A stretch of 64,000 nt of DNA from Scyliorhinus canicula (lineage: Eukaryota), in NCBI RefSeq assembly GCF_902713615.1, contig NC_052158.1:36819729-36883728 (forward strand), in the 5' to 3' direction. Every line of letters begins with the position of its first letter. Positions within the stretch are counted from its first letter, which is position 1. A program made the translations under genes and the position numbers. Under the pieces are notes generated by a model. It had not been told where the DNA came from. It ran no database searches and was given only the letters and a program-made list of their open reading frames with translations. Shown here in pieces: positions 22,831 through 57,613 of this stretch.

Positions 22831-24974
22831 TATTATGACGCTCTCTTGGCTCTTCTGCCATCCTCACAATCCACTGTAGCTCGTCTGGATCGCTCTGTGA
22901 TGTCTTGTCATGGGCTACACCTAGGTGAATCCCCTTTTCTTTTGCCCTATGGAAGAGACCTCTGTAGTTTTGCAGCTCTGATGAAACACCTAAATTTTGA
23001 CATTTTCTTTTCTGGATATCACTTATACAGAGTTCTTCTTGCGCTTGCCATTTCAAGTATCTCTTCATTGGTTGTACAAAATTTTGAGCGGCCTGGGTCA
23101 AGTAGATGGGAAGAACCTATTTACCTGAACAGAGATGTCAGTAACTAGAGGGCATTAAGGGATTGGTCTAAAAAAGTTTAGACTGGAGATTTGGACTTTT
23201 TTCTTTACCCAAGGTAAGTCGGGCTAGTGGAAGCAAAGAAAAATCTCATCTCATTTAAAAGGCACCTCAAGTGCCCAGTGCCATAAACTGCAAGACTACA
23301 TACCAAATGCTGGAAAGTGGGATTAGGCTGCATGGATCATTATTCGGTTGGAGTGGACACGATGGGTCAAGTGGCCCCTTTCCATGGGGTAAACATTCTA
23401 GGATTCCATGATTCATTTAATGGGATGTTTATGAAATTCTTTGGTGAATGCTGATGCAAAGTACTCATTTAGTACCTCGCCCATTTCCTGTGGCACCACG
23501 CATAGATTCTCTCCTCTGTCCTTGATTGGGCCAACCCTTTCCCTGGCTATCCTCTTGCTCTTTATATTCATAAAGAAAGCCTTGGGATTTTCCTTAATCT
23601 TCTTTGCCGATTACTGTTCATGACCCCTTTTAGCCTGCCTGACTGCTTGCTTAATTCCTTCCTATTTTCCTTATATTCTTCATGGGCTTCGTCTGTTCCC
23701 TTCTAGCCCTTTTCTTCTAGCTTCCTTTTTCTTTTTGACTAGGCTCACAATATCCCTTGTCATCAACGGTTCCTGAAACATGCCATGTTATCCTTCTTCC
23801 TCACAGGAACATGCCGGATCTGAATTCCTATCAACTGACATTTGAAAGCCTCCCACATGCCAGATGATGATTTACCCTCAAACATCCAGCCCCAACCTAG
23901 CTTTTTCAGTTCCCGCCGAATATTATTATAATTAGCCTTCCCCAATTTAGCACTTTCACCAAGGACTACTCGTATCTTTATCCAACAGTACCTTAAAACA
24001 CATTGAATTATGGTCACTGTTCCAGAAATGCTGCCCGACTGAAACTTCGACCACTGGCCAGGCTCATTCTTAAATAGCAGGTGAAGTATGTCCCCGTCCC
24101 AAGTTGGACTATCTACATATTGCTTCCAAAAGCCCTCCTGGATGCTCCTTACAAACTCTGCCCCATCCAAGCCCCTGGCAATAAGTGATTCCCAGTCAAT
24201 ATAGGGGAAGTTAAAATCACTCACCACAATAAACCTGTTGATTTACACCATTCCAAAATCTGCCTACATATCTGCTCCTCTATCTCCCGCTGGCTGTTAG
24301 AAGGCTTGTAGTAAACCCCCAACATTGTGACTTGACCCTTCCTATTCTTGAGCTCTACCCATATTGCCTTGTCACATGAGGACTCCGAGGTGACCTCCCA
24401 CAGTACAGCTGTGATATTCTCAACCAGTAGTTCAACTTCCCCAACCCTTTTACTTCCCCTTCTATCCTACCTGAAACATCTAAATACTGGAATGTTTAGC
24501 TGCCAATCATGTCCCTCCCTCAACCAAGTATATGTAGTGGCAACAACATCATAGTTCCAAGTACTAATCCAAGCTCTAAGTTCATCTGCTTTACCTGTTA
24601 TACTTCTCGCATTGAAATAAATGCACTTCAGACCACCAGTCCCACTGGGTTCAGCAACAACTTCCTGCCTCAGAGTCTTACTGGCCCTATTCTCTATTTC
24701 AGGCATTGTCAAAGTCGGGGACGCGATCCACAGGTGGGTCATGGGGGGGTGTTGAGAGGGTCACGGAGCAGTCAGTCGAGGCACCCCTGATCGCGCAAAT
24801 CCACGCACAACAACTGCAGCAGCTGCAGCAACTATGCCGGCTGCGAGCAGCCCCGAACATATTTTAAAAATGCGGCCGCACTGCGCATGCAAGCCCGATC
24901 ATCGGGGCGTGTGCGCAAAACTATGCGCATGAATGATTGGGCACGCATGCGCAGTGCAGTTGCATATTTTTTAT

Positions 24975-25130
24975 ATGGCTAAAAAGGTTGCTGTTGCTGC
25001 TGAAGAAAAAAAGGAAGAGCTGAAAGAGGAAGAATCTGAAGAGTCTGATGATGACATAGGCTTTGGCCTCTTTGATTAAACGTGCCATGCAAGAACATTG
25101 TTACAATTTGCAAAAAATAAATAAAAATTG
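24975..25130 (+). pseudogene. 3' fragment of an acidic ribosomal P-protein gene (RPLP1/RPLP2-like) with stop and 3'UTR
   Basis: 24975-25079 reads MAKKVAVAAEEKKEELKEEESEESDDDIGFGLFD*, the universal P-protein C-terminus (M>I). AATAAA at 25116. Confidence 0.9.
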
Positions 25131-25333
25131 AATATAAAAGCCGGCTGCTGCGGCTGAGGACCGCAAATTTGCGCAATTGGAGACGCAGAAGATTCGAAAA
25201 AAAATTCTTTGTAATCTTCCTGCCTGAGGGAGGCAGAGTGCATGTCACGGCCCCGAACATCGCCATCACGTGCTTTGGGAGTGATTGCGATTCTTCCATT
25301 CTATCAGCAGCAAACAAGGGTAAGAGAAAATGA

Positions 25334-25471
25334 TGGGTCGCGAAGGTCGGCCAGCATGGGTCGCGAAGGTCGGCTGGTGTGGGTCCCGAAGGTCGGCCGG
25401 CTTGGGTCCCGAAGGTTGGCCTGTGTGGGTCCCGAAGGTCGGCCGGCGTGGGTCCCGAAGGTCGGCCAGCT
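25334..25471. repeat. Six 23-bp subterminal repeats of the hAT MITE
   Basis: tgggtc(g/c)cgaaggtcggc + 4-5 variable nt, x6. Confidence 0.92.
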
Positions 25472-25779
25472 GGTAAAAATGGGTCCCCGGAAAAAAAGTT
25501 TGAAAAACACTGCTCTACTTCCCCCTCAATTATTTCACTTTCTGACTTTTTTCTCCAGTTCCCACCCCCCTGCCACACTAATTTAAACCATCCCGTGTGA
25601 CACTAGCAAACCTCGCAGCCAGGATATTTATGCCCCTCCAGTTTAGATGCAACCCATCCTTCTTGTACAGGTCCCACCTGCCCCAGAAGAGATCCCAATG
25701 GCCCACTCATTATAAATTCCAGCAGCACATCTAATATCTTTTAGTAACAAACAAGTCAATTGCTTTCTTATTGTGAAAT

Positions 25780-28770: not shown

Positions 28771-30741
28771 TCAGTCGGTAGGCCTCTGCAAGTCCAGGCT
28801 TGTTGGTGGGGGCCGAATGTAATGCGACATGAATCCCAGATCCCGGTTGAGTCCGCATTCATGCGTGCGGAACTTAGCTATAAGTTTTTGCTCAGCAATT
28901 TTGCGTTGTCGCGTCTCCTGAAGGCCTCCTTGTAGAATGCTGACCCGGAGATCAGAGGCTGAATGTCCTTGACTGCTGAAGTGTTCCCCAACTGGAAGGG
29001 AACAGTCCTGCCTGTTGATAGTCGCACGATGCCCGTTTATTCGTTGTCGCAGTGTCTGCATGGTCTCGCCAATGTACCACGCTTCGGGACATCCTTTCCT
29101 GCAGCGTATGAGGTAGACTACATTGGTCGAGTCGCACGAGTATGCGCCGCGTACCTGGTGGGTGGTGTTTCCACGTGTAATGGTGGTGTCCATGTCGATG
29201 ATCTGGCATGTCTTGCAGAGATTACCCTGGCAGGGTTTTGTGGTGTTGTGGTTGCTGTTCTGAAGGCTGGGTAATTTGCTGCAAACAATGGTTTGTTTGA
29301 GGTTGCGCGGTTGTTTGAAGGCCAGTAGTGGGGGTGTGGGGATGACCTTGGCAAGATGTCCATCCTCGCTGATGATGTGTTGGAGGCTGCGAAGAAGATG
29401 TCGTAGTTTCTCCGCCCCAGGAAAGTACTGGACGACGAAGGGTACTCTGTCAGTGGTGTCCCGTGTTTGTCTTCTGAGGAGGTCGGTGCGGTTTTTTGCT
29501 GTGGCGCGGTGGAACTGTCGATCAATGAGTCGAGCGCCATATCCCGTTCGTACGAGGGCATCTTTCAGCATCTGTAGGTGTCTGTTGCGCTCCTCCTTGT
29601 CTGAGCAGATCCTGTGTATACGGAGGGCTTGTCCATAGGGGATGGCTTCTTTAATGTGTTTCGGGTGAAAGCTGGAGAAGTGGAGCATCGTGAGATTATC
29701 TGTGGGCTTGCGGTAAAGCGAGGTGCTGAGGTGACCGTCCTTGATGGAGACGAGTGTGTCCAAGAATGGAACTGAATTTGGAGAATAGTCCATGGTGAGT
29801 TTGATGGTGGGATGGAACTTATTGATGTCATCGTGTAGTCGTTTCAGTGATGTCTCGCCGTGGGTCCAAAGGAAAAAAATGTCATCGATGTATCTGGTGT
29901 ATAGCATCGGTTGAAAGTCCTGTGTGGTGAGGAAGTCCTGTTCAAACTTGTGCATGAAGATGTTGGCATATTGAGGTGCAAATTTGGTCCCCATGGCTGT
30001 TCCATGCGTCTGGATGAAGAATTTGTTGTCGAAGGTGAAGACGTTGTGGTCTAGAATGAAACGGATGAGTTGCAGAATTGCGTCTGGAGATTGGCAGTTG
30101 TCGGTGTTGAGGACTGAGGCTGTTGCAGCAATGCCGTCGTCATGGGGGATGCTGGTGTAGAGTGCCGAGACATCCATTGTGACGAGGAATGTTCCTGGTT
30201 CAACTGGTCCATGGGTGCTGAGTTTCTGTAGGAAGTCCGTCGTGTCGCGACAGAAGCTGGGTGTACCTTGTACGATGGGTTTCAAGATGCCCTCGATGTG
30301 GCCAGAGAGGTTCTCACACAGGGTCCCATTGCCTGAAACGATAGGACGGCCTGGTGTGTTGGCCTTGTGTATTTTCGGGAGGCAGTAGAGATCTCCAATG
30401 CGGGGATTACGTGGGATGAGAGCACGTAGGGTGTTCTGAAGGTCTGGATCTAAGGTCTTGATCAGTCTGCTGAGTTGGCGGATGTGTTCCTTGGTTGGAT
30501 CTGCGGGTAACTGCCTGTAGTGTTCCTGGTTGTCGAGTTGTCGGTATACTTCTTTGCAGTAGTCTGTTCTGTTCAGTATGACGGTGGCCCCTCCTTTGTC
30601 TGCTGGTTTGATGACGATGTTGCGGTTGGTCTTGAGAGTGCGGATGGCGTTGCGTTGTGCTTGGGTGACGTTTGAGGCTGCCTTGTGATTGCGAGTGATG
30701 AATCTGGCATTGACATGACTTCTGACGGCTTGAGCATACAT
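28771..30741 (-). CDS. Penelope-like reverse transcriptase-GIY-YIG endonuclease (656 aa, N-terminally truncated)
   Basis: IKPADKGG, YCLPKIHK, GTAMG, RYIDDIF (RT); C..C..C linker; NVVYLIRC..C...WYIGET (GIY-YIG); GLNRD C-terminus. Confidence 0.93.
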   Translation of the reverse strand: MYAQAVRSHVNARFITRNHKAASNVTQAQRNAIRTLKTNRNIVIKPADKGGATVILNRTDYCKEVYRQLDNQEHYRQLPADPTKEHIRQLSRLIKTLDPDLQNTLRALIPRNPRIGDLYCLPKIHKANTPGRPIVSGNGTLCENLSGHIEGILKPIVQGTPSFCRDTTDFLQKLSTHGPVEPGTFLVTMDVSALYTSIPHDDGIAATASVLNTDNCQSPDAILQLIRFILDHNVFTFDNKFFIQTHGTAMGTKFAPQYANIFMHKFEQDFLTTQDFQPMLYTRYIDDIFFLWTHGETSLKRLHDDINKFHPTIKLTMDYSPNSVPFLDTLVSIKDGHLSTSLYRKPTDNLTMLHFSSFHPKHIKEAIPYGQALRIHRICSDKEERNRHLQMLKDALVRTGYGARLIDRQFHRATAKNRTDLLRRQTRDTTDRVPFVVQYFPGAEKLRHLLRSLQHIISEDGHLAKVIPTPPLLAFKQPRNLKQTIVCSKLPSLQNSNHNTTKPCQGNLCKTCQIIDMDTTITRGNTTHQVRGAYSCDSTNVVYLIRCRKGCPEAWYIGETMQTLRQRINGHRATINRQDCSLPVGEHFSSQGHSASDLRVSILQGGLQETRQRKIAEQKLIAKFRTHECGLNRDLGFMSHYIRPPPTSLDLQRPTD

Positions 30742-30815
30742 GTCGAGTCTAGGGCAGCGGCCCTATTTTACCAGTCAGTTTATTTTACCAGTCAGTGTTT
30801 TGTCTGCTCCCTCTT

Positions 30816-33462: not shown

Positions 33463-34450
33463 GATGTGGAGATGCCGGCGTTGGACTGGGGTGAGCACAG
33501 TAAGAAGTCTTACAACACCAGGTTAAAGTCCAACAGGTTTGTTTCAAACACGAGCTTTCGGAGCACGGCTCCTTCTTCAGGTGAATGGAAAGGCTTGTTC
33601 CAGAAATGTTTATATAGACACAGTCAGAGATGCCCCGGAATGCGAGCACCTGCAGGCAATCAAATCATCAAAGATGCAGAGAGAGAGGTAACTCCAGGTT
33701 AAAGAGGTGTGAATTGTCCCAAGCCAGTTCAGTCGGTAGGCCTCTGCAAGTCCAGGCTTGTTGGTGGGGGCCGAATGTAATGCGACATGAATCCCAGATC
33801 CCGGTTGAGTCCGCATTCATGCGTGCGGAACTTAGCTATAAGTTTTTGCTCAGCAATTTTGCGTTGTCGCGTCTCCTGAAGGCCTCCTTGTAGAATGCTG
33901 ACCCGGAGATCAGAGGCTGAATGTCCTTGACTGCTGAAGTGTTCCCCAACTGGAAGGGAACAGTCCTGCCTGTTGATAGTCGCACGATGCCCGTTTATTC
34001 GTTGTCGCAGTGTCTGCATGGTCTCGCCAATGTACCACGCTTCGGGACATCCTTTCCTGCAGCGTATGAGGTAGACTACATTGGTCGAGTCGCACGAGTA
34101 TGCGCCGCGTACCTGGTGGGTGGTGTTTCCACGTGTAATGGTGGTGTCCATGTCGATGATCTGGCATGTCTTGCAGAGATTACCCTGGCAGGGTTTTGTG
34201 GTGTTGTGGTTGCTGTTCTGAAGGCTGGGTAATTTGCTGCAAACAATGGTTTGTTTGAGGTTGCGCGGTTGTTTGAAGGCCAGTAGTGGGGGTGTGGGGA
34301 TGACCTTGGCAAGATGTCCATCCTCGCTGATGATGTGTTGGAGGCTGCGAAGAAGATGTCGTAGTTTCTCCGCCCCAGGAAAGTACTGGACGACGAAGGG
34401 TACTCTGTCAGTGGTGTCCCGTTTAACCTGGTGTTGTAAGACTTCTTACT
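33463..34450 (-). mobile_element. Penelope-like element copy 2 with an inverted terminal segment
   Basis: 33498-34422 matches 28540-29464 (offset 4958; ORF-track translations identical). 34422-34450 is the reverse complement of the terminal repeat. TSD ctttctatttttg at 33451-33463 / 34449-34461. Confidence 0.93.
33549..33583 (-). ncRNA. Minimal hammerhead ribozyme, second copy
   Basis: Same sequence as 28591-28625. Confidence 0.8.
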
Positions 34451-42911: not shown

Positions 42912-45900
42912 GTCTTCCGGTGGTGGCTATGAGGGAGTAAGTCGCACATTTGGTGGCTCTCAAAGTCCGGTTGGACTTTTGAACCTTTTTCTCTGACATT
43001 TTTGTACTTTTGAGCGCTGGATCTGAAAGACATAGGCACTCAGGCACTGACTCCAGATATAGGTGTATGGAATTAAGAATCAGAAAGAAGTGGGAAAACT
43101 GAAATTGAAAATCGCTCATTGTCACAAGTAGGCTTCAAATGAAGTTACTGTAAAAAGCCCCTAGTCGCCACATTCCGGTGCATGTTTGGGGAGGCTGGTA
43201 TGGGAATTGAACTGTGCTGCTGGCCTGCCTTGGGCTGCTTTCAAAGCCAGCGATTTAGCTGTGCTAAACCAGCCCCAGTAAGGGCAGTGCAGAAGCTGCT
43301 GCTGAGGACAATATGGCCGATGTCCAACCCCGGTGCAGACAGCCCAGCCAACAATGGAGCATCTGCTGAATGTCATCCAAGAGGGCTTTACCGCGCTGAA
43401 ACGGGACAGTTTAGACCCGATTCAGAAATCAATCGGGTGCCTGGAGCACAGGCTGGATGCCCAGGATCGGACGATCCAGAAGCTGGAAAAGGTGCTGGAG
43501 GAGCAGGAGAAACACCAAACGGAGGTGGAGATGGAGAGGCTGAAAGACCAACAAAAAAGTCTTCTGGAAAAGGTGGAGAACCTGGAAAATAGGTCCTCTC
43601 GGCAGAATTTGAGAATCGTTGGTCTCCCAGAGGGGGCTGAGGGAGAGGCTGCCGCCGCGTATATGGCAGACATGTTCCAGAAGCTATTGGGGGATGATGT
43701 CTTCCCGTGCCCGTTGGAGGTGGACACGGCGCACAGAGCACTGGTGAGGCAGCCGCGAGTGCCCCCCCCCCCCCCCCCCCCCCCCGGTCGCCCCCAACCC
43801 CCACCTGAGCGATGTTGGTCAGATTCCACAGATTCCTGGACATGGAGTGGGAGCTACAGTGGACCAAGCGCACACGGAGCTGCTATTGGAATAATAATGT
43901 CTCGTGCATCTACAGGACCTGAGCGTGGAGGTGGCCAGGCAAGTCAAAGAGATTCTGTTGAAGAAGCAGGTGATGTTTGGGTTGCTATACCCCGCGCCCC
44001 TTTTGGTCACGCACGAGGACTGGCACCATTACTTTGAGGAGTCCGTGGACTCGATGGACTTCGCCAAGAGAGAAGGACTGGTGCCGAACTGAGGACTTTG
44101 TGGGCTTGAGTTTGAAAAGTCACAAAGCGATGTTTACATGTTTTTCTTGTGTTGTTTTTGCTTTTCTCTTCTGTACTCGAGCTTTCGCTGAAAAAGAGGG
44201 TAATTAAGTTATTTGGTGCTGGGGGCTTTTTGTGTTCTGATCGGGGTGGCTGGAAGTGCCTATTACTTATTTTGTTTTATTTGATTTGCACTCGCGTCGG
44301 GGTTTTCTTTGGGTTTTTTTCAGAGCAATTTCTCGAGGATGGCTGGTTTGGGGGTGGTGTTGATGGGCGGGTGGATGGGTCAGAGGGAACAATAGGTGGG
44401 AGACCTGTTGGCGTCGGAGTCGAGAGTCACCAGGCTAGCTGGGTGAGCTGGTCTACGGAAGCCAGGTGGCGGTGTGTACATAGCTAGTTTATGGCAGGGG
44501 TTAGGTTAGAGGGTGCTGTTGCTGGGGGGGGGGGGGGGGGGGGGGGGGGGAAGGGGGGGCGAAGGAGGTAGTTCTCTGCTGACGGGGGGGGGGAGAAGGG
44601 GGTAGTTCTCTGCTGACGAGGGGGGGTACTTGTGTTTGGTAACATGGAGAAGGTCGGAGGTGGGGGCTGCCAGGTGACGGGCCAGGGGAAACACGACACG
44701 GGCTAGGGGCGGCCCCAAGAAAGGAGCTGGCTGATCGGTGAGGCACGGTGCCCCTCAACCAGGCTCTTCACCTGGAACGTTAGAGGGTTAAACGGGCCTG
44801 TGAAAAGGGCACGTGTGTTCGTGCATCTGAGGGTGCTGAAGGCGGACGTAATAATACTTAAGGAGACTCATCTGAAAGTAGCTGACCAGGTTAGATTAAG
44901 GAAGGGCTAGATTAGCCAAGTCCTCCACTCGGGGCTGGACACTAAAATCAGGGGGGGTTGCGATTTTGCTTACTAAATGGGTGAAATTCGAGGTGGATAG
45001 CACAATTTCGGATGGGGGAACGCAGATTTGTCATGGTGAGTGGCAGCTTGAGGGGATGAGGGTAGTTTTGGTCAATGTATATGCCCCAAATTGGGACAAT
45101 GTGGTTTTTATTAAGAGACAGCTGGGGAAGATACCTGACCTGGACTCGCACAGGCTGATTATGGAAGATGATTTTAACACAGTCCTTGACCCCGGCCTAG
45201 ACCGGTTGTGTTCAAAAACGGGTAAGGTGCAGGCAATGGCAAAAGAGCTGAGGGGTTTTATGGAGCAAATTGGCGGGGGCTGATCCATGGAGGGCTAGTC
45301 GGCCGACAGGGAATGAGTTATCATTCTATTCACATGTTCATAAGGTGTATTCCCAAATTGATTTTTTTTCATCATGAGCAGGGATTTGCTGGCAGGGGTG
45401 ACAGACGTAGAATATTCGGCGATCGCTATTTCGGACCATGCTCCACACTGCGTTGATCTGCAGGTCTGCAAGGAAAGCTTTCAGCACCCTCAATGGAGGC
45501 GAGAGGTTGGTTTGTTGGCGGACGAGGCGGTGTGTGAGGTGGTGAGGAAATGTATGCAAAACTATCTGCAGGTCAATGACACAGGGGAAGTCTCAGCTGC
45601 AGTGCTTTGGGAGGCGCTGAAGGCAGTGGTGAGAGGGGAGCTGATCTCGATTAGAGCGCATAGGGACAGGACGGACCGGGTAGAAACGGACTGACTGGTA
45701 AAGGAGATCTTGCAGATAGACAGGAGATATGCGGAGACCCCGAGGGAAGAACTATTAAGGGTACGATGAAGGCTACATACTGAGTTTAGGGTGTTATCCA
45801 ATGGTAAGGCTGTGGATCAGCTTAGGAAGGCGAGGGGCGCGATTTACGAGCATGGGGAGGAAGCCAGTAGAATGCTGGCACAGCAACTGAGGAAGAGGGA

Positions 45901-48900
45901 GGCGGCCAGGAAATAGGGAAGGTAGTCGATGGAGGGGGGGGGAGACTCGAGGGGATCCGACAGGGCTGAACAAGGTGTTCAGGGACTTCTAGAGTAAGCT
46001 TTACACCTCGGAACCCCCTCCGGGGCCTGAGGGGATGAGGCGCTCTGGTTGAACTGACCTTCCCAAAAGTGGGTAGGGGGTTGGTAGACGGGCTAGGGGC
46101 CCCAATTGGGACCCAAGAAATATTGGGGGGCTTGAGGGCCAGGCAATTGGGTAAAGCCCCGGGGCTGGATGGGTATCTGGTGGAATTTGATAAAACGTTC
46201 TCTGAGATAGTGCGGCCGGTGCTGGTTAGGGTTTTTAATGAGGCAAGAAACAGAGGAGTTCTACCCCCGACGAAGTCACAGGCCACCATCTACCTGATAT
46301 TGAAACGGGACAAAGACCCAGAGGCATGTGGATCTTATAGGCCGATCTCTCTGCTCAATGTAGATGCTAAAATACTGGCCAAGCTCTTGGCTGCTAGGAT
46401 TGAGGACTGTGTGCCGAACGTTATTATGGAAGATCAAACCAGGTTCGTCAAGGGCAGGCAGTTGGTGGCCAACCTAAGAAGGCTGCTGAATGTGATCATG
46501 ATGCCCCCAGAGTGTAGGGAGGCAGAGGTAGTTGTGGCAATTGATGCCGAGAAGGCTTTCAATCGGGTTGAGTGGGACTACTTATGGGATGTGCTGGGAC
46601 GATTTGGGTCCGGGAGGGCCTTATCGACTGGGTCAGACTGTTGTACCAGGCTCCGGAGACTAGTGTAAGGATGAATAGGACGACGTCTGACTATTTTAGA
46701 CTGTACCAAGGGACAAGGCAGGGGTTCCCCCTCTCCCCACTGCTGTTTGCGCCAGCAATACATCCGCTGGCAATTGCTCTTGAGAGCTTCATGGGGCTGG
46801 AAGGGGCTGGTGCGTAGGGGCTGAAACACCATAGTTTCATTGTACACCGATGACCTGCTCTTATACATCACGGATCCAGTGGCTGGGATGTATGAAATCA
46901 TGGGAACGCTGAGGGAATTCAACCGATTTTCAGGGTATAAACTGAACACGGCAAAAAGTTAGTTATTTGTAGTCCAGGCGAAAGAACACGAGGGTCGGCT
47001 GAAGGGGCTGCCGTTTAGGTTAGTAGGGGACAGTTTTAAATACTTGGGCATACAGGTGGCGCGGGACAAGGGCCGGTAAGAACTAGGAGCAGGAGTAGGC
47101 CATCTGGCCCCTCGGGCCTGCTCCGCCATTCAATGAGATCATGGCTGATCTTTTGTGGACTCAGCTTCACTTTCTGGCCCGAACACCACAACCCTTAATC
47201 TCTTTATTCTTCAAAAAACTATCTATCTACTCTTAAAAACATTTAATGAAGGAGCCTCAACTGCTTCACCGGGCAAGGAATTCCATAGATTCACAACACT
47301 TTGGGTGAAGAAATTCCTCCTAAACTCAGTCCTAAATCTACTTCCCCTTACTTTGAGGCTATGCCCCCTAGTTCTGCTTTCACCTGCCAGTGGAAACAAC
47401 CTGCCCGCATCTATCCTATCTATTTCCGTCATAATTTTATCTGTTTCTATAAGATCCCCCCTCATCCTTCTAAATTCCAACGAGTACAGTCCCCAGTCTA
47501 CTCAACCTCTCCTTGTAATCCAACTCCATCAGCTCTGGGATTAACCTAGTGAATCTTCTCTGCACCCTCCAGCGCCAGTACGTCTGTTCTCAGGTAAGGA
47601 GACCAAAACTGAACACAATACTCCAGGTGTGGCCTCACTAACACCTTATACAATTGCAACATAACCTCCCTAGTCTTAAACTCCATCCCTCTAGCAATGA
47701 AGGACAAAATTCCATTTGCCTTCTTAATCACCTGTTGCACTTGTAAACCAACCTTCTGTGACTCATGCACTAGCACATTTTGTGTGGCACATTGTCAAAG
47801 ACTTTCTGGAAACCAGATATACGACATCCATTTGCTCCCCGTTATCTGACGCACTGGTAATGTCCTCACAAAATTCCACGAAATTAGTTAGTTGCACAAG
47901 TTGAAATTTTCTCGGTTGGTGGAGCAAATGAGGGTTGAGTTCTGGAGGTGGGATGCGCTCCCACTGACACTAGCGGGGAGAGTGCAGATGGTTAAAATGA
48001 CGATCGTCCCAAGATTCTTCTTCGTATTCCAGCGTCTCCCCATTTTCATTCCGCGGTCTATTTTCAAGAAGGTCAATGAAATGATTCTGGGATTTGTGTG
48101 GGCGGGAAAGTCCCCGCGGGTGAGGAGATTGATGCTCAAGAGGAACCGGGGAAAGGGGGGCTGACGCTGCCAAACTTTAGTAATTATTACTGGTCGGCCA
48201 ACATAGCTCTGATAAGGAAGTGGATGGTGGGTGCGGGGTCAGTTTGGGGGAGGATGCAGACCGCTTTGTGCAGGGGAACCAGTTTGGCAGCCCTGGTTAC
48301 GGCGTCCATGCCATTCCCGCTGGCAAGATACTCCACCAGCCCTCTTGTGGTGGCGACTTTGCAGATCTGGGGCCAATGGAAAAGGCATGTGGGGGAAGTG
48401 AGAGCATTAGTTTGGTCCCCAATTTGCGGCAATCACCGGTTCGCCCCGGGGAATATGGACGGTGGGTTCCGAACATGGCGGAGGGCTGGGATTGAGAGGA
48501 TGGGGGATCTGTTCTTGGAAGGGAGCTACCCGAGCATGAGGGCGCTAGAGAAGAAATTTGGGCTGGCGAGAGGGAATGTTTTCAGGTACTTGCAGGTGCG
48601 GGACTTTCTACGCAGACCGATCCCATCCTTCCCACGCCTGCCACTGAGGGGGATCCAGGACAGGGTAGTGTCTAATGAATGGGTGGGGGAGGGGAGGGTC
48701 TCAGATATATACAAAGAGCTCATGGGGGCAGAGGAGGTGCAGACCGAGGTGCTGAAGCCAAAGTGGGAAGAGGAGCTCGGAGGTGAGACAGAAGAGGGCT
48801 TATGGGCGGAGTCATTGAGCAGGGTAAACGCAACCGCAACATGCGCTCGGCCCAGCCTGATTCAATTCAAGGTCGTTCACCGGGCCCACATGACAGTGGC

Positions 48901-49512
48901 CCGGACGAGTAAATTCTTTGGATTGGAGGACAGGTGCGCCAGATGTTCGGGAGGACCAGCGAACCATGTGCACATGTTCTGGGCATGTCCAAAACTCAGG
49001 GGGTACTGGCAGGGATTCGCGGAAATTATGTCCCAGGTATTGCAAACCAGGATGGCGATGAGTCCAGAGGTGGCAATTTTTGGGGTTTCGGATGACCCGG
49101 AAGTCCAGGAGGACAGAGAGGCTGACATTTTGGCCTTTGCTTCCCTGGTAGCCCGGCGATGAATTCTGCTGGCATGGAAGGACACAAAGCCCCCGGAGTC
49201 GGAGGCCTGGCTATCGGATATGGCGAGCTTTCTCGGTCTGGAGAAAATGAAGTTCACTCTGAGAGGGTCACTGTCTGTTCGCTCGTAGGTGGCAACCATT
49301 TATCGACCTCTTTGCAGAAAATTAATCGTCAGCAGGTTTGGGGGGGGGGGGGGGCAGTTAGGGCAACGTAGATTCTGGGGGTAGTTAGGCGGGTCCATGT
49401 AGGAGGAGAGCTGGTTTTTGCACTATGTTGATTGCTCTTTGCACTCTGTTTTGTATTGTTGATGTTTACTATGCCAAAAATGCCTCAACAAAGTTGTTTA
49501 TCAAAATAAATC
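42912..49512 (+). mobile_element. Full-length degenerate L1-clade LINE with a 13-bp TSD
   Basis: 5'UTR cttccggtgg; ORF1 (43067 onward, SINE inside); EN TWNVRGLNGPVKR (~44770); RT KAPGLDG..YRPISLLNVDAKIL..DAEKAFNRVEW, YTDDLL; Cys-rich CARCSGGPANHVHMFWAC. TSD gattggccacgct 42899-42911 / gattggccacact 49513-49525. Confidence 0.88.
47078..47885 (-). mobile_element. CR1 3' fragment inserted into the L1 RT
   Basis: VRPHLEYCVQFWSPYL, RRNFFTQSVVNLWNSLP; the L1 reading resumes at ~47888. Confidence 0.88.
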
Positions 49513-55367: not shown

Positions 55368-57613
55368 GGTGCTATGTCTTTTCGTCCAACGTCATTTCAT
55401 CCAACGACACTTCGTCCACGTCTTTTGGTCCAACGTCTTTTTGTCCGCCCGTCTTTTGGTCCAACGTCACTTCGTCCAATTATCCAATTACAAATTAACT
55501 CCGTATAAAACCATTCAATTGATAAAATGCAAGTACAATACAGCAAGTGAATTTAGTTGCTAAAATGCAAGTAATTGATAAAATGCAAGTAAAATGCAAG
55601 TTGAAAAATGCAGTTTAAAAATCTAAAAATGCAGTTAAAAAATCTAAAAGTTTACTAATAATTTTTTTTGTCTAAGACTTTTTGTAACTTGACTTTTTGT
55701 AACTTGTACCACTCCACTTCACTCCCCACATTAACTTTTTATGCAATAAAGGATTTTTATTACCGGTCCCTTTCCTTTAACGAGCCTCGTTAAAGGATAG
55801 TTATTATCGTTCTCTTTCCTTTAACGAGCCTCGTTAAAGGATAGATATTATCGTTCTCTTTCTTAATTCGCCCATCCCGAAATGGCAAAGTTCATTGTGT
55901 CAACGAAGAGTAAAAGGAAAGTAGCTGATGGAAATAACTATATCTACGATTTTTATTCGAGCAGTCCAAACCTAGGAAAAGAATACTGGAATTGTGAGAA
56001 AAGAAGGCTATGTTCAGTGCGGATTCACACGGTAACGGAAAACAATGAGCCGAAAATTATTTATTTCTCTAATGAGCACCTTCATCCAGCTGATGTTGAT
56101 TCGTTAAATGCTAGAAAAGCAGTTGCAGAAATAAAGCATGAAGCAGTGGAAAACATAGCAGCAAGTTCGCGTAGCATACTAGCGGCCAAGTTTATGCAGC
56201 TATCAGAAAATACCTGCTCTCAACTCCTTAGGTTGCCCGTCGTCTCAAGAAATATTCAAAGGTGCCGACAAAAAAAATTCTGGATTTCCCGCTAATCCAG
56301 CGGCTAGACACGGTTTTGAAATACCTGACAAATATTGTAGACTTCACAATGGCGAACAGTTTCTGAGATACGATTCGGGCGCCGAGGATCAACAGCGCTT
56401 ACTAGTATTCGCATCAGAAAGTGCTCTTCAGAATTTAGCATCATATCGTCATTGGGCATGCGATGGGACATTCAAGATTGTGCCACAACAGTGGTTTCAA
56501 CTGTTCTGCATTCATGTACAAGTTAAAGGAAGCAGTTTTCCACGGGTCTTTGCATTACTGCCGAATAAAAGAAAGCAGACATACGAATTATTCTTTGACC
56601 AATTGAAAATTATGCAACCTAATGCAGATCCGATTGATATCATGGCAGATTTCGAAGTTGCAGTTCACAAGGCAATTAATTCATCATTCCTTAATTCATC
56701 TGTCGTGGCATGTTTGTTTCATTTGAGCCAATCTGTGTTTCGAAAAATTACCGATTTAGGCCTCAAAGAAAAATACAATACAGACTCTGAATTCTGTCTT
56801 AAAATTCGATGTTTTTCAGCATTAGCTTTCCTCCCCGTTGAAGATGTCGAAGAGGCTTATGAAGATTTGATAGACGATGAAGAAATACCTGCTGAATTCA
56901 TCGTTTACTTCGACTTGACTTACATAGGCATTGTGAGAGGACGTGGTGCCAGACGGAGGAGTGAAACACCTACATTCCCGACAGCTGTATGGAATGTTAA
57001 TCAGCGTGTTCTACAAGATCTACCGAGAACAAATAATGCTGCTGAGGGGTTTCATTCTGCCATAAAGCGTTCGGCGGGTGGAGCTCATTTGAATATCTGG
57101 AGGTTAATCAAAACTCTGAAGGAAGAGGAAGGGTTCATAATAGACAAAAAGGCTCAAATTCTTCGGGGAGATCAGTCGACTTCATGTACGCGATATAAGA
57201 AAATAACTGAACGCCTCAAAAAATTGGTCGTTGAATATGATTCTACAACAAAAATTGATTTCTTGAGGAATGTTGCTTACAATTTACATCAATTTTAAGT
57301 AATTTTGGGAATTTGAAGTAATTAGTAAACTTTTAGATTTTTTTAACTGCATTTTTAGATTTTTAAACTGCATTTTTCAACTTTCATTTTACTTGCATTT
57401 TATCAATTACTTGCATTTTAGCAACTAAATTCACTTGCTGTATTGTACTTGCATTTTATCAATTAAATGGTTTTATACGGAGTTAATTTGTAATTGGATA
57501 ATTGGACGAAGTGACGTTGGACCAAAAGACGGGCGGACAAAAAGACGTTGGACCAAAAGACGTGGACGAAGTGTCGTTGGACGAAGTGACGTCGGACGAA
57601 AAGACGCGACACG
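55368..57613 (+). mobile_element. Mutator-superfamily (Phantom-like, FLYWCH+MULE) DNA transposon
   Basis: ~290-bp TIRs (55368-55659 / 57321-57613) with about 10 mismatches; 9-bp TSD gtcttaacg (55359-55367 / 57614-57622); transposase ORF between them. Confidence 0.92.
55882..57298 (+). pseudogene. FLYWCH-MULE transposase with one +1 frameshift in an A8 run (56270-56277); ~471 aa if repaired
   Basis: YIY..KEYWNC..C.VRIHT..H.H (FLYWCH). The shifted frame is open through HWACDGTFK, IMADFEVAV, CLFHLSQ, PRTNNAAEGFH (MULE DDE). Confidence 0.9.

What the first reader, a model, noticed from the sequence alone, without database searches (positions are those of the whole stretch)
24700..25512. hAT MITE carrying the 3' end of an acidic ribosomal P-protein gene
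Seen: between hAT-type TIRs and an 8-bp TSD lies AAEEKKEELKEEESEESDDDIGFGLFD*, followed by a short 3'UTR and AATAAA. The fragment is below the ORF-track cutoff. There is no long poly(A) or obvious TSD around it, and it interrupts one arm of the MITE's internal inverted repeat. Known: this C-terminus is the GTPase-factor and ribotoxin-binding motif of RPLP0/1/2. Inference: either Pack-type gene capture by a vertebrate hAT, or a truncated retrocopy landing in the MITE. If it is multicopy, the transposon is dispersing a host mRNA fragment. An upstream ATG gives a 34-aa ORF, probably fortuitous.
Basis: partly seen in the sequence, partly recalled or inferred. Interest (0 to 1): 0.7.

Follow-up and report, generated by a model that had tools for sequence, protein, structure and literature searches.

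The report
Shark transposon spreading captured messenger RNAs
In a shark genome, a small cut-and-paste transposon carries intron-free copies of three housekeeping genes, likely written into it by a LINE reverse transcriptase, and has scattered them widely (over a hundred places for the ribosomal protein P1 copy); the piece flagged here is a shortened, decaying member of that P1 set.

Summary
Window 24700-25512 is a non-autonomous hAT element carrying the last 145 bases of an RPLP1 mRNA. Most relatives carry a nearly complete, intron-free RPLP1 mRNA: all three introns of the parent gene are gone, it ends at the poly(A) site seen in RNA reads, and a 16-bp duplication of transposon sequence flanks it. 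Empty-site elements exist. The 3' junction occurs 123 times (about 185-210 estimated), with different 8-bp duplications and flanks. So one retroposition was multiplied by DNA transposition. The window copy belongs to a three-member deletion clade. The same family also carries spliced HNRNPU (poly(A), 13-bp duplication, same nick) and spliced HPRT1 fused in frame to a transposase remnant, each multicopy. All three cargoes evolve neutrally; the window copy was not seen in two RNA runs; the 34-aa ORF is fortuitous. Retrogene amplification by DNA transposons is known from bat Helitrons and a fungal hAT. Seven literature searches found no vertebrate cut-and-paste case, nor one hAT family with three mRNAs, two at one nick. 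Verdict: new variant of a known kind.

The parts
24700..25512 (+). Non-autonomous hAT element (813 bp), deletion derivative of the RPLP1-carrying subfamily
   Evidence: clade with L002 and L029, support 98/86; relatives retain hAT dimerisation-domain remnants
24692..24699 (.). Left 8-bp target-site duplication of the transposon
   Evidence: 7 of 8 identical to 25513-25520
25513..25520 (.). Right 8-bp target-site duplication
24700..24715 (+). Left terminal inverted repeat
   Evidence: 11 of 16 matches to the right end; same end in relatives
25497..25512 (-). Right terminal inverted repeat
   Evidence: many different flanks follow 25512 in DNA contigs and RNA reads (table 7)
24858..24977 (.). 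Central palindrome of the element (45-nt arms, 78% complementary)
24975..25079 (+). Fortuitous 34-aa ORF: start codon from transposon sequence, put in frame by the deletion
   Evidence: L002 has lost the stop codon and L029 the in-frame start
24990..24992 (+). Deletion junction (about 380 bp lost, 2-nt microhomology), shared with L002 and L029
24991..24999 (+). Last 9 bases of RPLP1 exon 3 (2 of them shared with transposon sequence)
   Evidence: parent exon ends
25000..25135 (+). RPLP1 exon 4: C-terminal coding part, stop 25077-25079, 3'UTR with polyadenylation signal 25116-25125, up to the poly(A) addition site
   Evidence: 38 RNA reads run into poly(A) after 25139
25136..25151 (+). Right copy of the 16-bp duplication made when the mRNA copy was inserted; it begins at an L1-endonuclease-type nick site
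   Evidence: both copies present in full-length relatives; single uninterrupted site in empty elements
25334..25471 (+). 23-bp subterminal tandem repeats of the element; array length varies widely between copies

Best explanation
A spliced, nearly full-length RPLP1 mRNA copy sits inside a non-autonomous hAT transposon family, likely inserted once by LINE target-primed reverse transcription, and cut-and-paste transposition then spread the loaded element to at least 123 places; the window copy is a later internal-deletion derivative that itself transposed. Shown: the spliced cargo, its ends at the mRNA ends, the 16-bp duplication, empty-site elements, independent 8-bp duplications and flanks, the shared deletion clade, and neutral decay. 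Inferred: that the enzyme was an L1-clade LINE, that the transposase came in trans from an autonomous relative, and that the cargo is a passenger without function. The same route likely loaded HNRNPU (same nick, poly(A), 13-bp duplication) and HPRT1 (spliced; its 3' end was later lost).
For: Parent gene with 4 exons at G000:C10:25867901-25875298; the family majority sequence matches all four exons contiguously at 96-100%. RNA reads put the poly(A) site at the insert's 3' end (38 reads) and the cap 5 bases before its 5' end (2796 reads). Of 69 distinct copies, 64 keep the 3' junction, 53 keep the 5' junction and none lacks both. The 3' junction pattern has 123 matches against 0 for the reversed control. 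It detects 34 of 51 sampled copies, giving about 185; DNA searches gave 207 and 208 first-look candidates, 40 scored each. 8-bp duplications match at 6 or more of 8 in 28 of 32 copies with both ends found (51 examined), against 5% of shuffled pairs; only 1 flank pair among 28 copies was similar. About 10 of 74 loci show the uninterrupted site, and two complete empty elements were read. Changes: 285 synonymous and 701 non-synonymous, against 298 and 685 expected under neutrality, p 0.33. An independent free-standing RPLP1 retrocopy with an A8 tail and its own duplication exists (L282), so mRNA retroposition works in this genome.
Against: The RPLP1 insert has no poly(A) tract beyond the A-run of the target site, which is weaker than a textbook retrocopy. 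The mobilising LINE was not identified, and no intact autonomous hAT was found (only remnants). Sampled copies are biased to best-scoring hits, so the divergence and open-frame counts (20 of 53 near-complete copies keep an open frame) are not genome-wide. Candidate counts are not confirmed copy numbers. HPRT1 has no recoverable duplication or tail.
Confidence: 0.88

Rival explanations
1. The transposon arm is a preferred landing site. A target-preferring LINE (Tx1-like), or breaks at the palindrome, repeatedly direct mRNA copies to this nick, so the family works as an mRNA trap rather than collecting rare accidents. This adds to the best explanation rather than replacing it.
For: RPLP1 and HNRNPU entered at the same nick with different duplication lengths, 16 and 13 bp. 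A third insert class (14 of 135 loci) ends at the same site. 24 of the first 30 unselected elements with that arm carry an mRNA. Only one free poly(A)-tailed RPLP1 copy was found among 2 hits. Tx1 families that target DNA transposons are known (PMC4494074, passages).
Against: No LINE 3' end was recognised at this site in the 74 loci inspected, whereas a site-specific LINE should mostly insert itself. The element has several similar A/T runs, so two hits at one is not rare by itself; the exact count of such sites was not done. High copy numbers reflect amplification, not number of events: there are only three events. Bat Helitrons collected four retrogenes without known targeting (PMC4224331).
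Confidence: 0.25
2. The transposon copied a retrocopy that already existed elsewhere in the genome, by template switching during gap repair (DNA-level capture).
For: A free full-length retrocopy exists (L282), and one element copy, L022, shares a distinctive 4-base variant with it. DNA-level capture is the usual route for Pack-TIRs (PMC8277862).
Against: The cargo ends exactly at the mRNA end with no donor flank. The duplicated 16 bp are transposon sequence. L282 has a deletion, a longer 5' end and a tail that the family lacks.
Confidence: 0.06
3. Pack-type capture of the genomic last exon of an acidic P-protein gene.
For: The window fragment alone is nearly coextensive with exon 4.
Against: The window copy keeps exon 3 bases, not the intron acceptor, before exon 4. 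Relatives carry all four exons without introns.
Confidence: 0.01
4. One-off processed pseudogene that landed in a dead element.
For: It crosses a splice junction.
Against: 123 identical junctions on many contigs; the window's own deletion form occurs at three sites with different 8-bp duplications.
Confidence: 0.01

Closest known systems
Helitron-amplified nested retrogenes of vespertilionid bats, e.g. HelibatN424 carrying RPLP0 (PMC4224331; passages and section 16 read)
   Same: mRNA retroposed into a DNA transposon, with TSD and empty sites, then amplified; even a stalk ribosomal protein mRNA, nearly full length
   Different: Rolling-circle element, not cut-and-paste; four cargoes total 118 copies and RPLP0 six copies, against at least 123 for RPLP1 alone here; no shared nick mentioned in the passages read
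hAT-carried histone H3 of Pseudocercospora fijiensis and relatives (PMC6710886; abstract and section 7 read)
   Same: hAT superfamily; spliced housekeeping coding sequence amplified to hundreds of inactive copies
   Different: Fungal; a complete hAT element; one cargo gene; decay by RIP; retroposition hallmarks (tail, duplication, empty site) not described in the section read
Animal Pack-TIRs, e.g. Pack-hAT-N8_XT and Ssk-FB4 (PMC8277862; passages read)
   Same: Host sequence between TIRs, multiple distinct TSDs, vertebrate hAT
   Different: DNA-level capture; only four multicopy cases in that survey (the frog example has three copies); intronless cargo was excluded by design; 'shark' does not occur in the main text
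Tx1-Mar and SINEU insertions into Mariner-N4_AMi; Tx1 into Tx1D (PMC4494074; passages read)
   Same: Retrotransposition machinery placing non-self RNA into a non-autonomous DNA transposon
   Different: There the LINE itself sits at the target and the cargo is snRNA-derived; here no LINE was seen at the site and the cargo is mRNA
Charlie/MER5-type hAT MITEs (recalled, not tested against a repeat library)
   Same: 8-bp TSD with central T-A (24 and 25 of 28), similar terminal motif, hAT dimerisation domain
   Different: Family assignment below the superfamily was not tested

Membership tests
hAT superfamily, non-autonomous element | 8-bp target-site duplication | tested here: met
   28 of 32 at 6 or more of 8, null 5%
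hAT superfamily, non-autonomous element | Short terminal inverted repeats | tested here: met
   16-bp imperfect repeats, 11 of 16 in the window, conserved across copies
hAT superfamily, non-autonomous element | Related to a hAT transposase-bearing element | tested here: met
   Dimer_Tnp_hAT in L190 and L186, E 1.2e-06 and 2.8e-05; same ends; no intact autonomous copy found
Processed retrocopy (LINE-mediated) | Introns absent relative to an intron-bearing parent | tested here: met
   RPLP1 3 of 3 junctions; HNRNPU 9 exon pieces contiguous in L181; HPRT1 exons 2-3-4 contiguous, exon 1 of the parent not located
Processed retrocopy (LINE-mediated) | Target-site duplication with a matching empty site | tested here: met
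   16 bp (RPLP1), 13 bp (HNRNPU), empty elements; not recoverable for HPRT1
Processed retrocopy (LINE-mediated) | Poly(A) tail at the mRNA 3' end | tested here: inconclusive
   RPLP1 ends at the poly(A) site but has no tail beyond the target A-run; HNRNPU copies keep about 8-9 A
Processed retrocopy (LINE-mediated) | Identity of the mobilising LINE | not tested
   RT-bearing LINE remnants are in the window but were not classified or linked
Pack-TIR / Pack-MULE in the strict sense | Cargo copied from genomic DNA (introns or flanks kept, no retroposition marks) | tested here: not met
Functional retrogene family | Purifying selection on the cargo | tested here: not met
   pooled ratios 1.07, 0.95, 0.92; p 0.33, 0.59, 0.59; single copies not tested
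Functional retrogene family | Copy-specific transcription | tested here: inconclusive
   Window copy not seen in 2 partly read RNA runs; depth falls about 180-fold and over 1000-fold at the two junctions in X21; few tissues; small RNA not examined
Target of a site-specific Tx1-type LINE | The LINE itself found repeatedly at the target site | tested here: not met
   none recognised among 74 loci; the sample is small

The most novel reading that the evidence does not exclude
This hAT family is an mRNA trap: its palindromic arm is a preferred target for LINE reverse transcription, so it repeatedly picks up host transcripts at one nick and multiplies them. That would make a two-element retro-plus-cut-and-paste gene duplication machine in sharks, which also built an in-frame HPRT1-transposase fusion in many copies.
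Probability: 0.25. Interest if true: 0.8.

Novelty: new variant of a known kind. Interest (0 to 1): 0.62.

Why it matters
It is a well-resolved vertebrate case of a cut-and-paste transposon multiplying retrocopies, with parent genes, empty sites and deletion derivatives all in hand. A survey of 100 animal genomes reported only four multicopy Pack-TIRs and excluded intronless cargo, so this route was invisible to it. One retroposition here yields over a hundred pseudogenes, which breaks the habit of reading retrocopy counts as LINE activity. The copies can also confound read mapping or qPCR on genomic DNA for RPLP1 and HPRT1 (both common reference genes, recalled) in a model shark group. If the shared nick reflects targeting, it makes LINE-DNA transposon interplay directly testable.

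Tried and rejected
A pattern meant to count empty sites (306 matches) also matches the left arm of every element, so it was not used as an empty count. Short 'empty' elements with a small repeat before the right end appear to be HNRNPU deletion remnants, not true empties. The first selection test (59 copies) merged distinct copies by a too-short key; it was redone with the same conclusion. The first guess at the HNRNPU parent by pattern found nothing; the parent was found by protein search and differs at one base in that stretch. No fourth mRNA cargo was recognised in the unexplained segments of the 68 of 135 loci with both ends; the other 67 were classified only against known cargoes. No RNA holder was listed by the run index, which is no evidence on expression. 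Orthology of the window insertion in organism B could not be read from short contigs. No earlier scan findings matched. PMC5753468, PMC11979771, PMC13320880 and bioRxiv 10.64898/2026.06.26.734816 were searched by term and the passages shown do not describe this family; their supplements and repeat libraries (Repbase, Dfam) were not seen and could already list it. Not done: the count of nick-like sites in empty elements, folding of the palindrome, and mapping of the nearby MHC gene.

Full report
Observation. The window holds, at 24700-25512, an 813-bp element with imperfect 16-bp terminal repeats (11 of 16) and an 8-bp flanking duplication matching at 7 of 8. Inside are a palindrome, an acidic P-protein C-terminus with stop and 3'UTR (Pfam Ribosomal_60s) and a 23-bp tandem array. 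There is no second copy in the window. The host is a shark: the best named match to one cargo is a Scyliorhinus protein at 91%; that the host is a catshark is inferred.

The family. Searching the own genome with the fragment gave 207 first-look candidates, 40 scored. Most relatives have about 380 more bases at the fragment's 5' side. Those bases are the rest of the mRNA: the majority sequence of 49 copies encodes a complete 109-aa protein, closest to P1 in the PDB. The parent gene has four exons on C10 with GT-AG introns, and the cargo joins all four without introns at 96-100% identity. Parent and majority coding sequence differ at 6 sites, 5 of them synonymous. RNA reads place the poly(A) site at the cargo's 3' end and the cap 5 bases upstream of its 5' end (I recognised the adapter in those loose ends from memory). 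A 16-bp stretch of transposon sequence is duplicated around the cargo, starting at a site of the L1-endonuclease consensus type (consensus recalled). Elements with the single uninterrupted site exist. Together these show insertion of an RNA-derived copy into the element. The weak point is the missing tail.

Amplification by transposition. The 3' junction occurs 123 times with at most one mismatch, against 0 for the control. The pattern detects 34 of 51 sampled copies, so about 185 copies are estimated, in line with 207 and 208 candidates. Of 51 loci, 32 had both ends, and 28 of these had 8-bp duplications matching at 6 or more positions, against 5% of shuffled pairs. Flanks were unrelated except one pair. 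The tree of 56 copies is largely star-like (3 of 53 inner branches well supported). Mean non-CpG divergence from the majority sequence is 3.9% (biased to close copies). DNA runs under a second organism label, from two studies, hold the family, including the bin with the RPLP1 3' end; orthology of single insertions was not shown.

The window copy. It shares its deletion breakpoint and several variants with L002 and L029. The three form a clade (98/86) and have different 8-bp duplications, so the deleted form transposed too. The deletion removed the left copy of the 16-bp duplication and put a transposon start codon in frame. That ORF is intact in only 1 of the 3, and the window copy has a private Met-to-Ile change in the terminal motif. 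In RNA run X21, 54 of 54 reads at 25110 carry the non-window base, and neither X21 (about 1% read) nor X22 (about 32% read) covers 24948-25055.

Two more cargoes. Loci fetched while looking for empty elements carried other genes. HNRNPU: 258 candidates, 40 scored; named; parent on C1. A long copy, L181, has nine exon pieces joined without introns. Short copies end at the gene's 3' end with about 8-9 A and are flanked by a 13-bp duplication starting at the same nick as RPLP1. 10 of 13 copies with both ends (20 examined) have matching 8-bp duplications. HPRT1: 360 candidates, 40 scored; named; parent on C17, exons 2-4 joined. It starts at the palindrome centre and runs by a short microhomology, in frame, into a hAT transposase remnant. 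12 of 19 copies with both ends (30 examined) have matching duplications, 3 of which share one duplication sequence and lie near each other on C1. Among the first 30 unselected elements with the right arm, 13 carry HNRNPU, 11 RPLP1, 4 another repeat fragment and 2 nothing.

Function. Pooled substitutions fit neutrality for all three cargoes (RPLP1 285/701 against 298/685; HPRT1 176/460 against 170/466; HNRNPU 61/144 against 57/148). 20 of 53 near-complete RPLP1 copies keep an open frame, which is raw material but not evidence of use. In four RNA runs laid at 88% likeness on a full copy, depth is high only over the cargo, the common variants are parent-type, and depth collapses at both junctions. 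A few hundred reads come from HNRNPU-remnant elements. The copies are best read as passengers.

Chance or targeting. Three captures in one family, two at one nick, suggest a preferred target, and Tx1 elements that target DNA transposons are known (PMC4494074). Against this: no LINE was seen at the site in 74 loci, the events number only three, and a free RPLP1 retrocopy shows background retroposition. I put targeting at 0.25.

Known and new. Bat Helitrons amplified four retrogenes, including RPLP0 (PMC4224331). A fungal hAT amplified a spliced histone H3 (PMC6710886). Animal Pack-TIRs are rarely multicopy, and that survey excluded intronless cargo (PMC8277862). Seven searches (listings, plus the passages cited) showed no report of this shark family or of a vertebrate cut-and-paste case. 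The library lacks most subscription journals and all repeat databases. Verdict: new variant of a known kind, interest 0.62.

Noticed in passing
L092, L094/L190, L186, L184, L109-L138: The N-terminal 110 residues of HPRT1 are fused in frame to the C-terminal part of a hAT transposase in a multicopy subfamily; 3 of 34 near-complete HPRT1 parts keep an open frame.
   Followed up: partly
L181, L182, L139-L158 and many of L191-L278: HNRNPU retrocopy at the same nick, with at least three amplified deletion derivatives: SPRY piece only, 5' piece plus 3'UTR, and a remnant of about 20 bases.
   Followed up: partly
L282:1040-1545 (G000:C21): Free-standing, cap-to-tail RPLP1 retrocopy with an A8 tail and its own duplication of about 10 bp, inside a LINE remnant.
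   Followed up: partly
L022 and L282: An element-borne copy and the free retrocopy share a 4-base variant absent from the parent and the family majority; gene conversion or an old parental allele is possible.
   Followed up: no
L205, L207, L213, L216, L089, L090, L107: A multicopy subfamily carries about 150 bp of an old LINE-like fragment (class recalled) plus an extended inverted arm, ending at the same site.
   Followed up: partly
L101, L242: Single elements with unidentified AT-rich sequence directly before the same site; possible further cargoes.
   Followed up: no
L113, L115, L117, L122 (C1, 188-190 Mb): Four HPRT1-type copies share the same left 8-bp flank, suggesting segmental duplication of one insertion.
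   Followed up: no
window 9531-9893 (-): MHC class I alpha-1 exon (Pfam MHC_I, E 3.5e-15); the element lies about 15 kb upstream on that strand; gene structure not mapped.
   Followed up: no
window 43306-49162 (+): Degraded LINE with an RT domain, L1/Tx1-like by recall; a candidate for the mobilising clade.
   Followed up: no
window 55867-57298 (+): MULE transposase domain ORF (E 3.5e-11).
   Followed up: no
window 28771-30762 and 33729-34445 (-): 663-aa RT ORF with a Penelope-like C-terminus (class recalled) and a second copy of its 3' part.
   Followed up: no
L009, L022, L025, L181: The 23-bp subterminal repeat has expanded into arrays of 0.6 to 1.9 kb in some copies, like a nascent minisatellite.
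   Followed up: no
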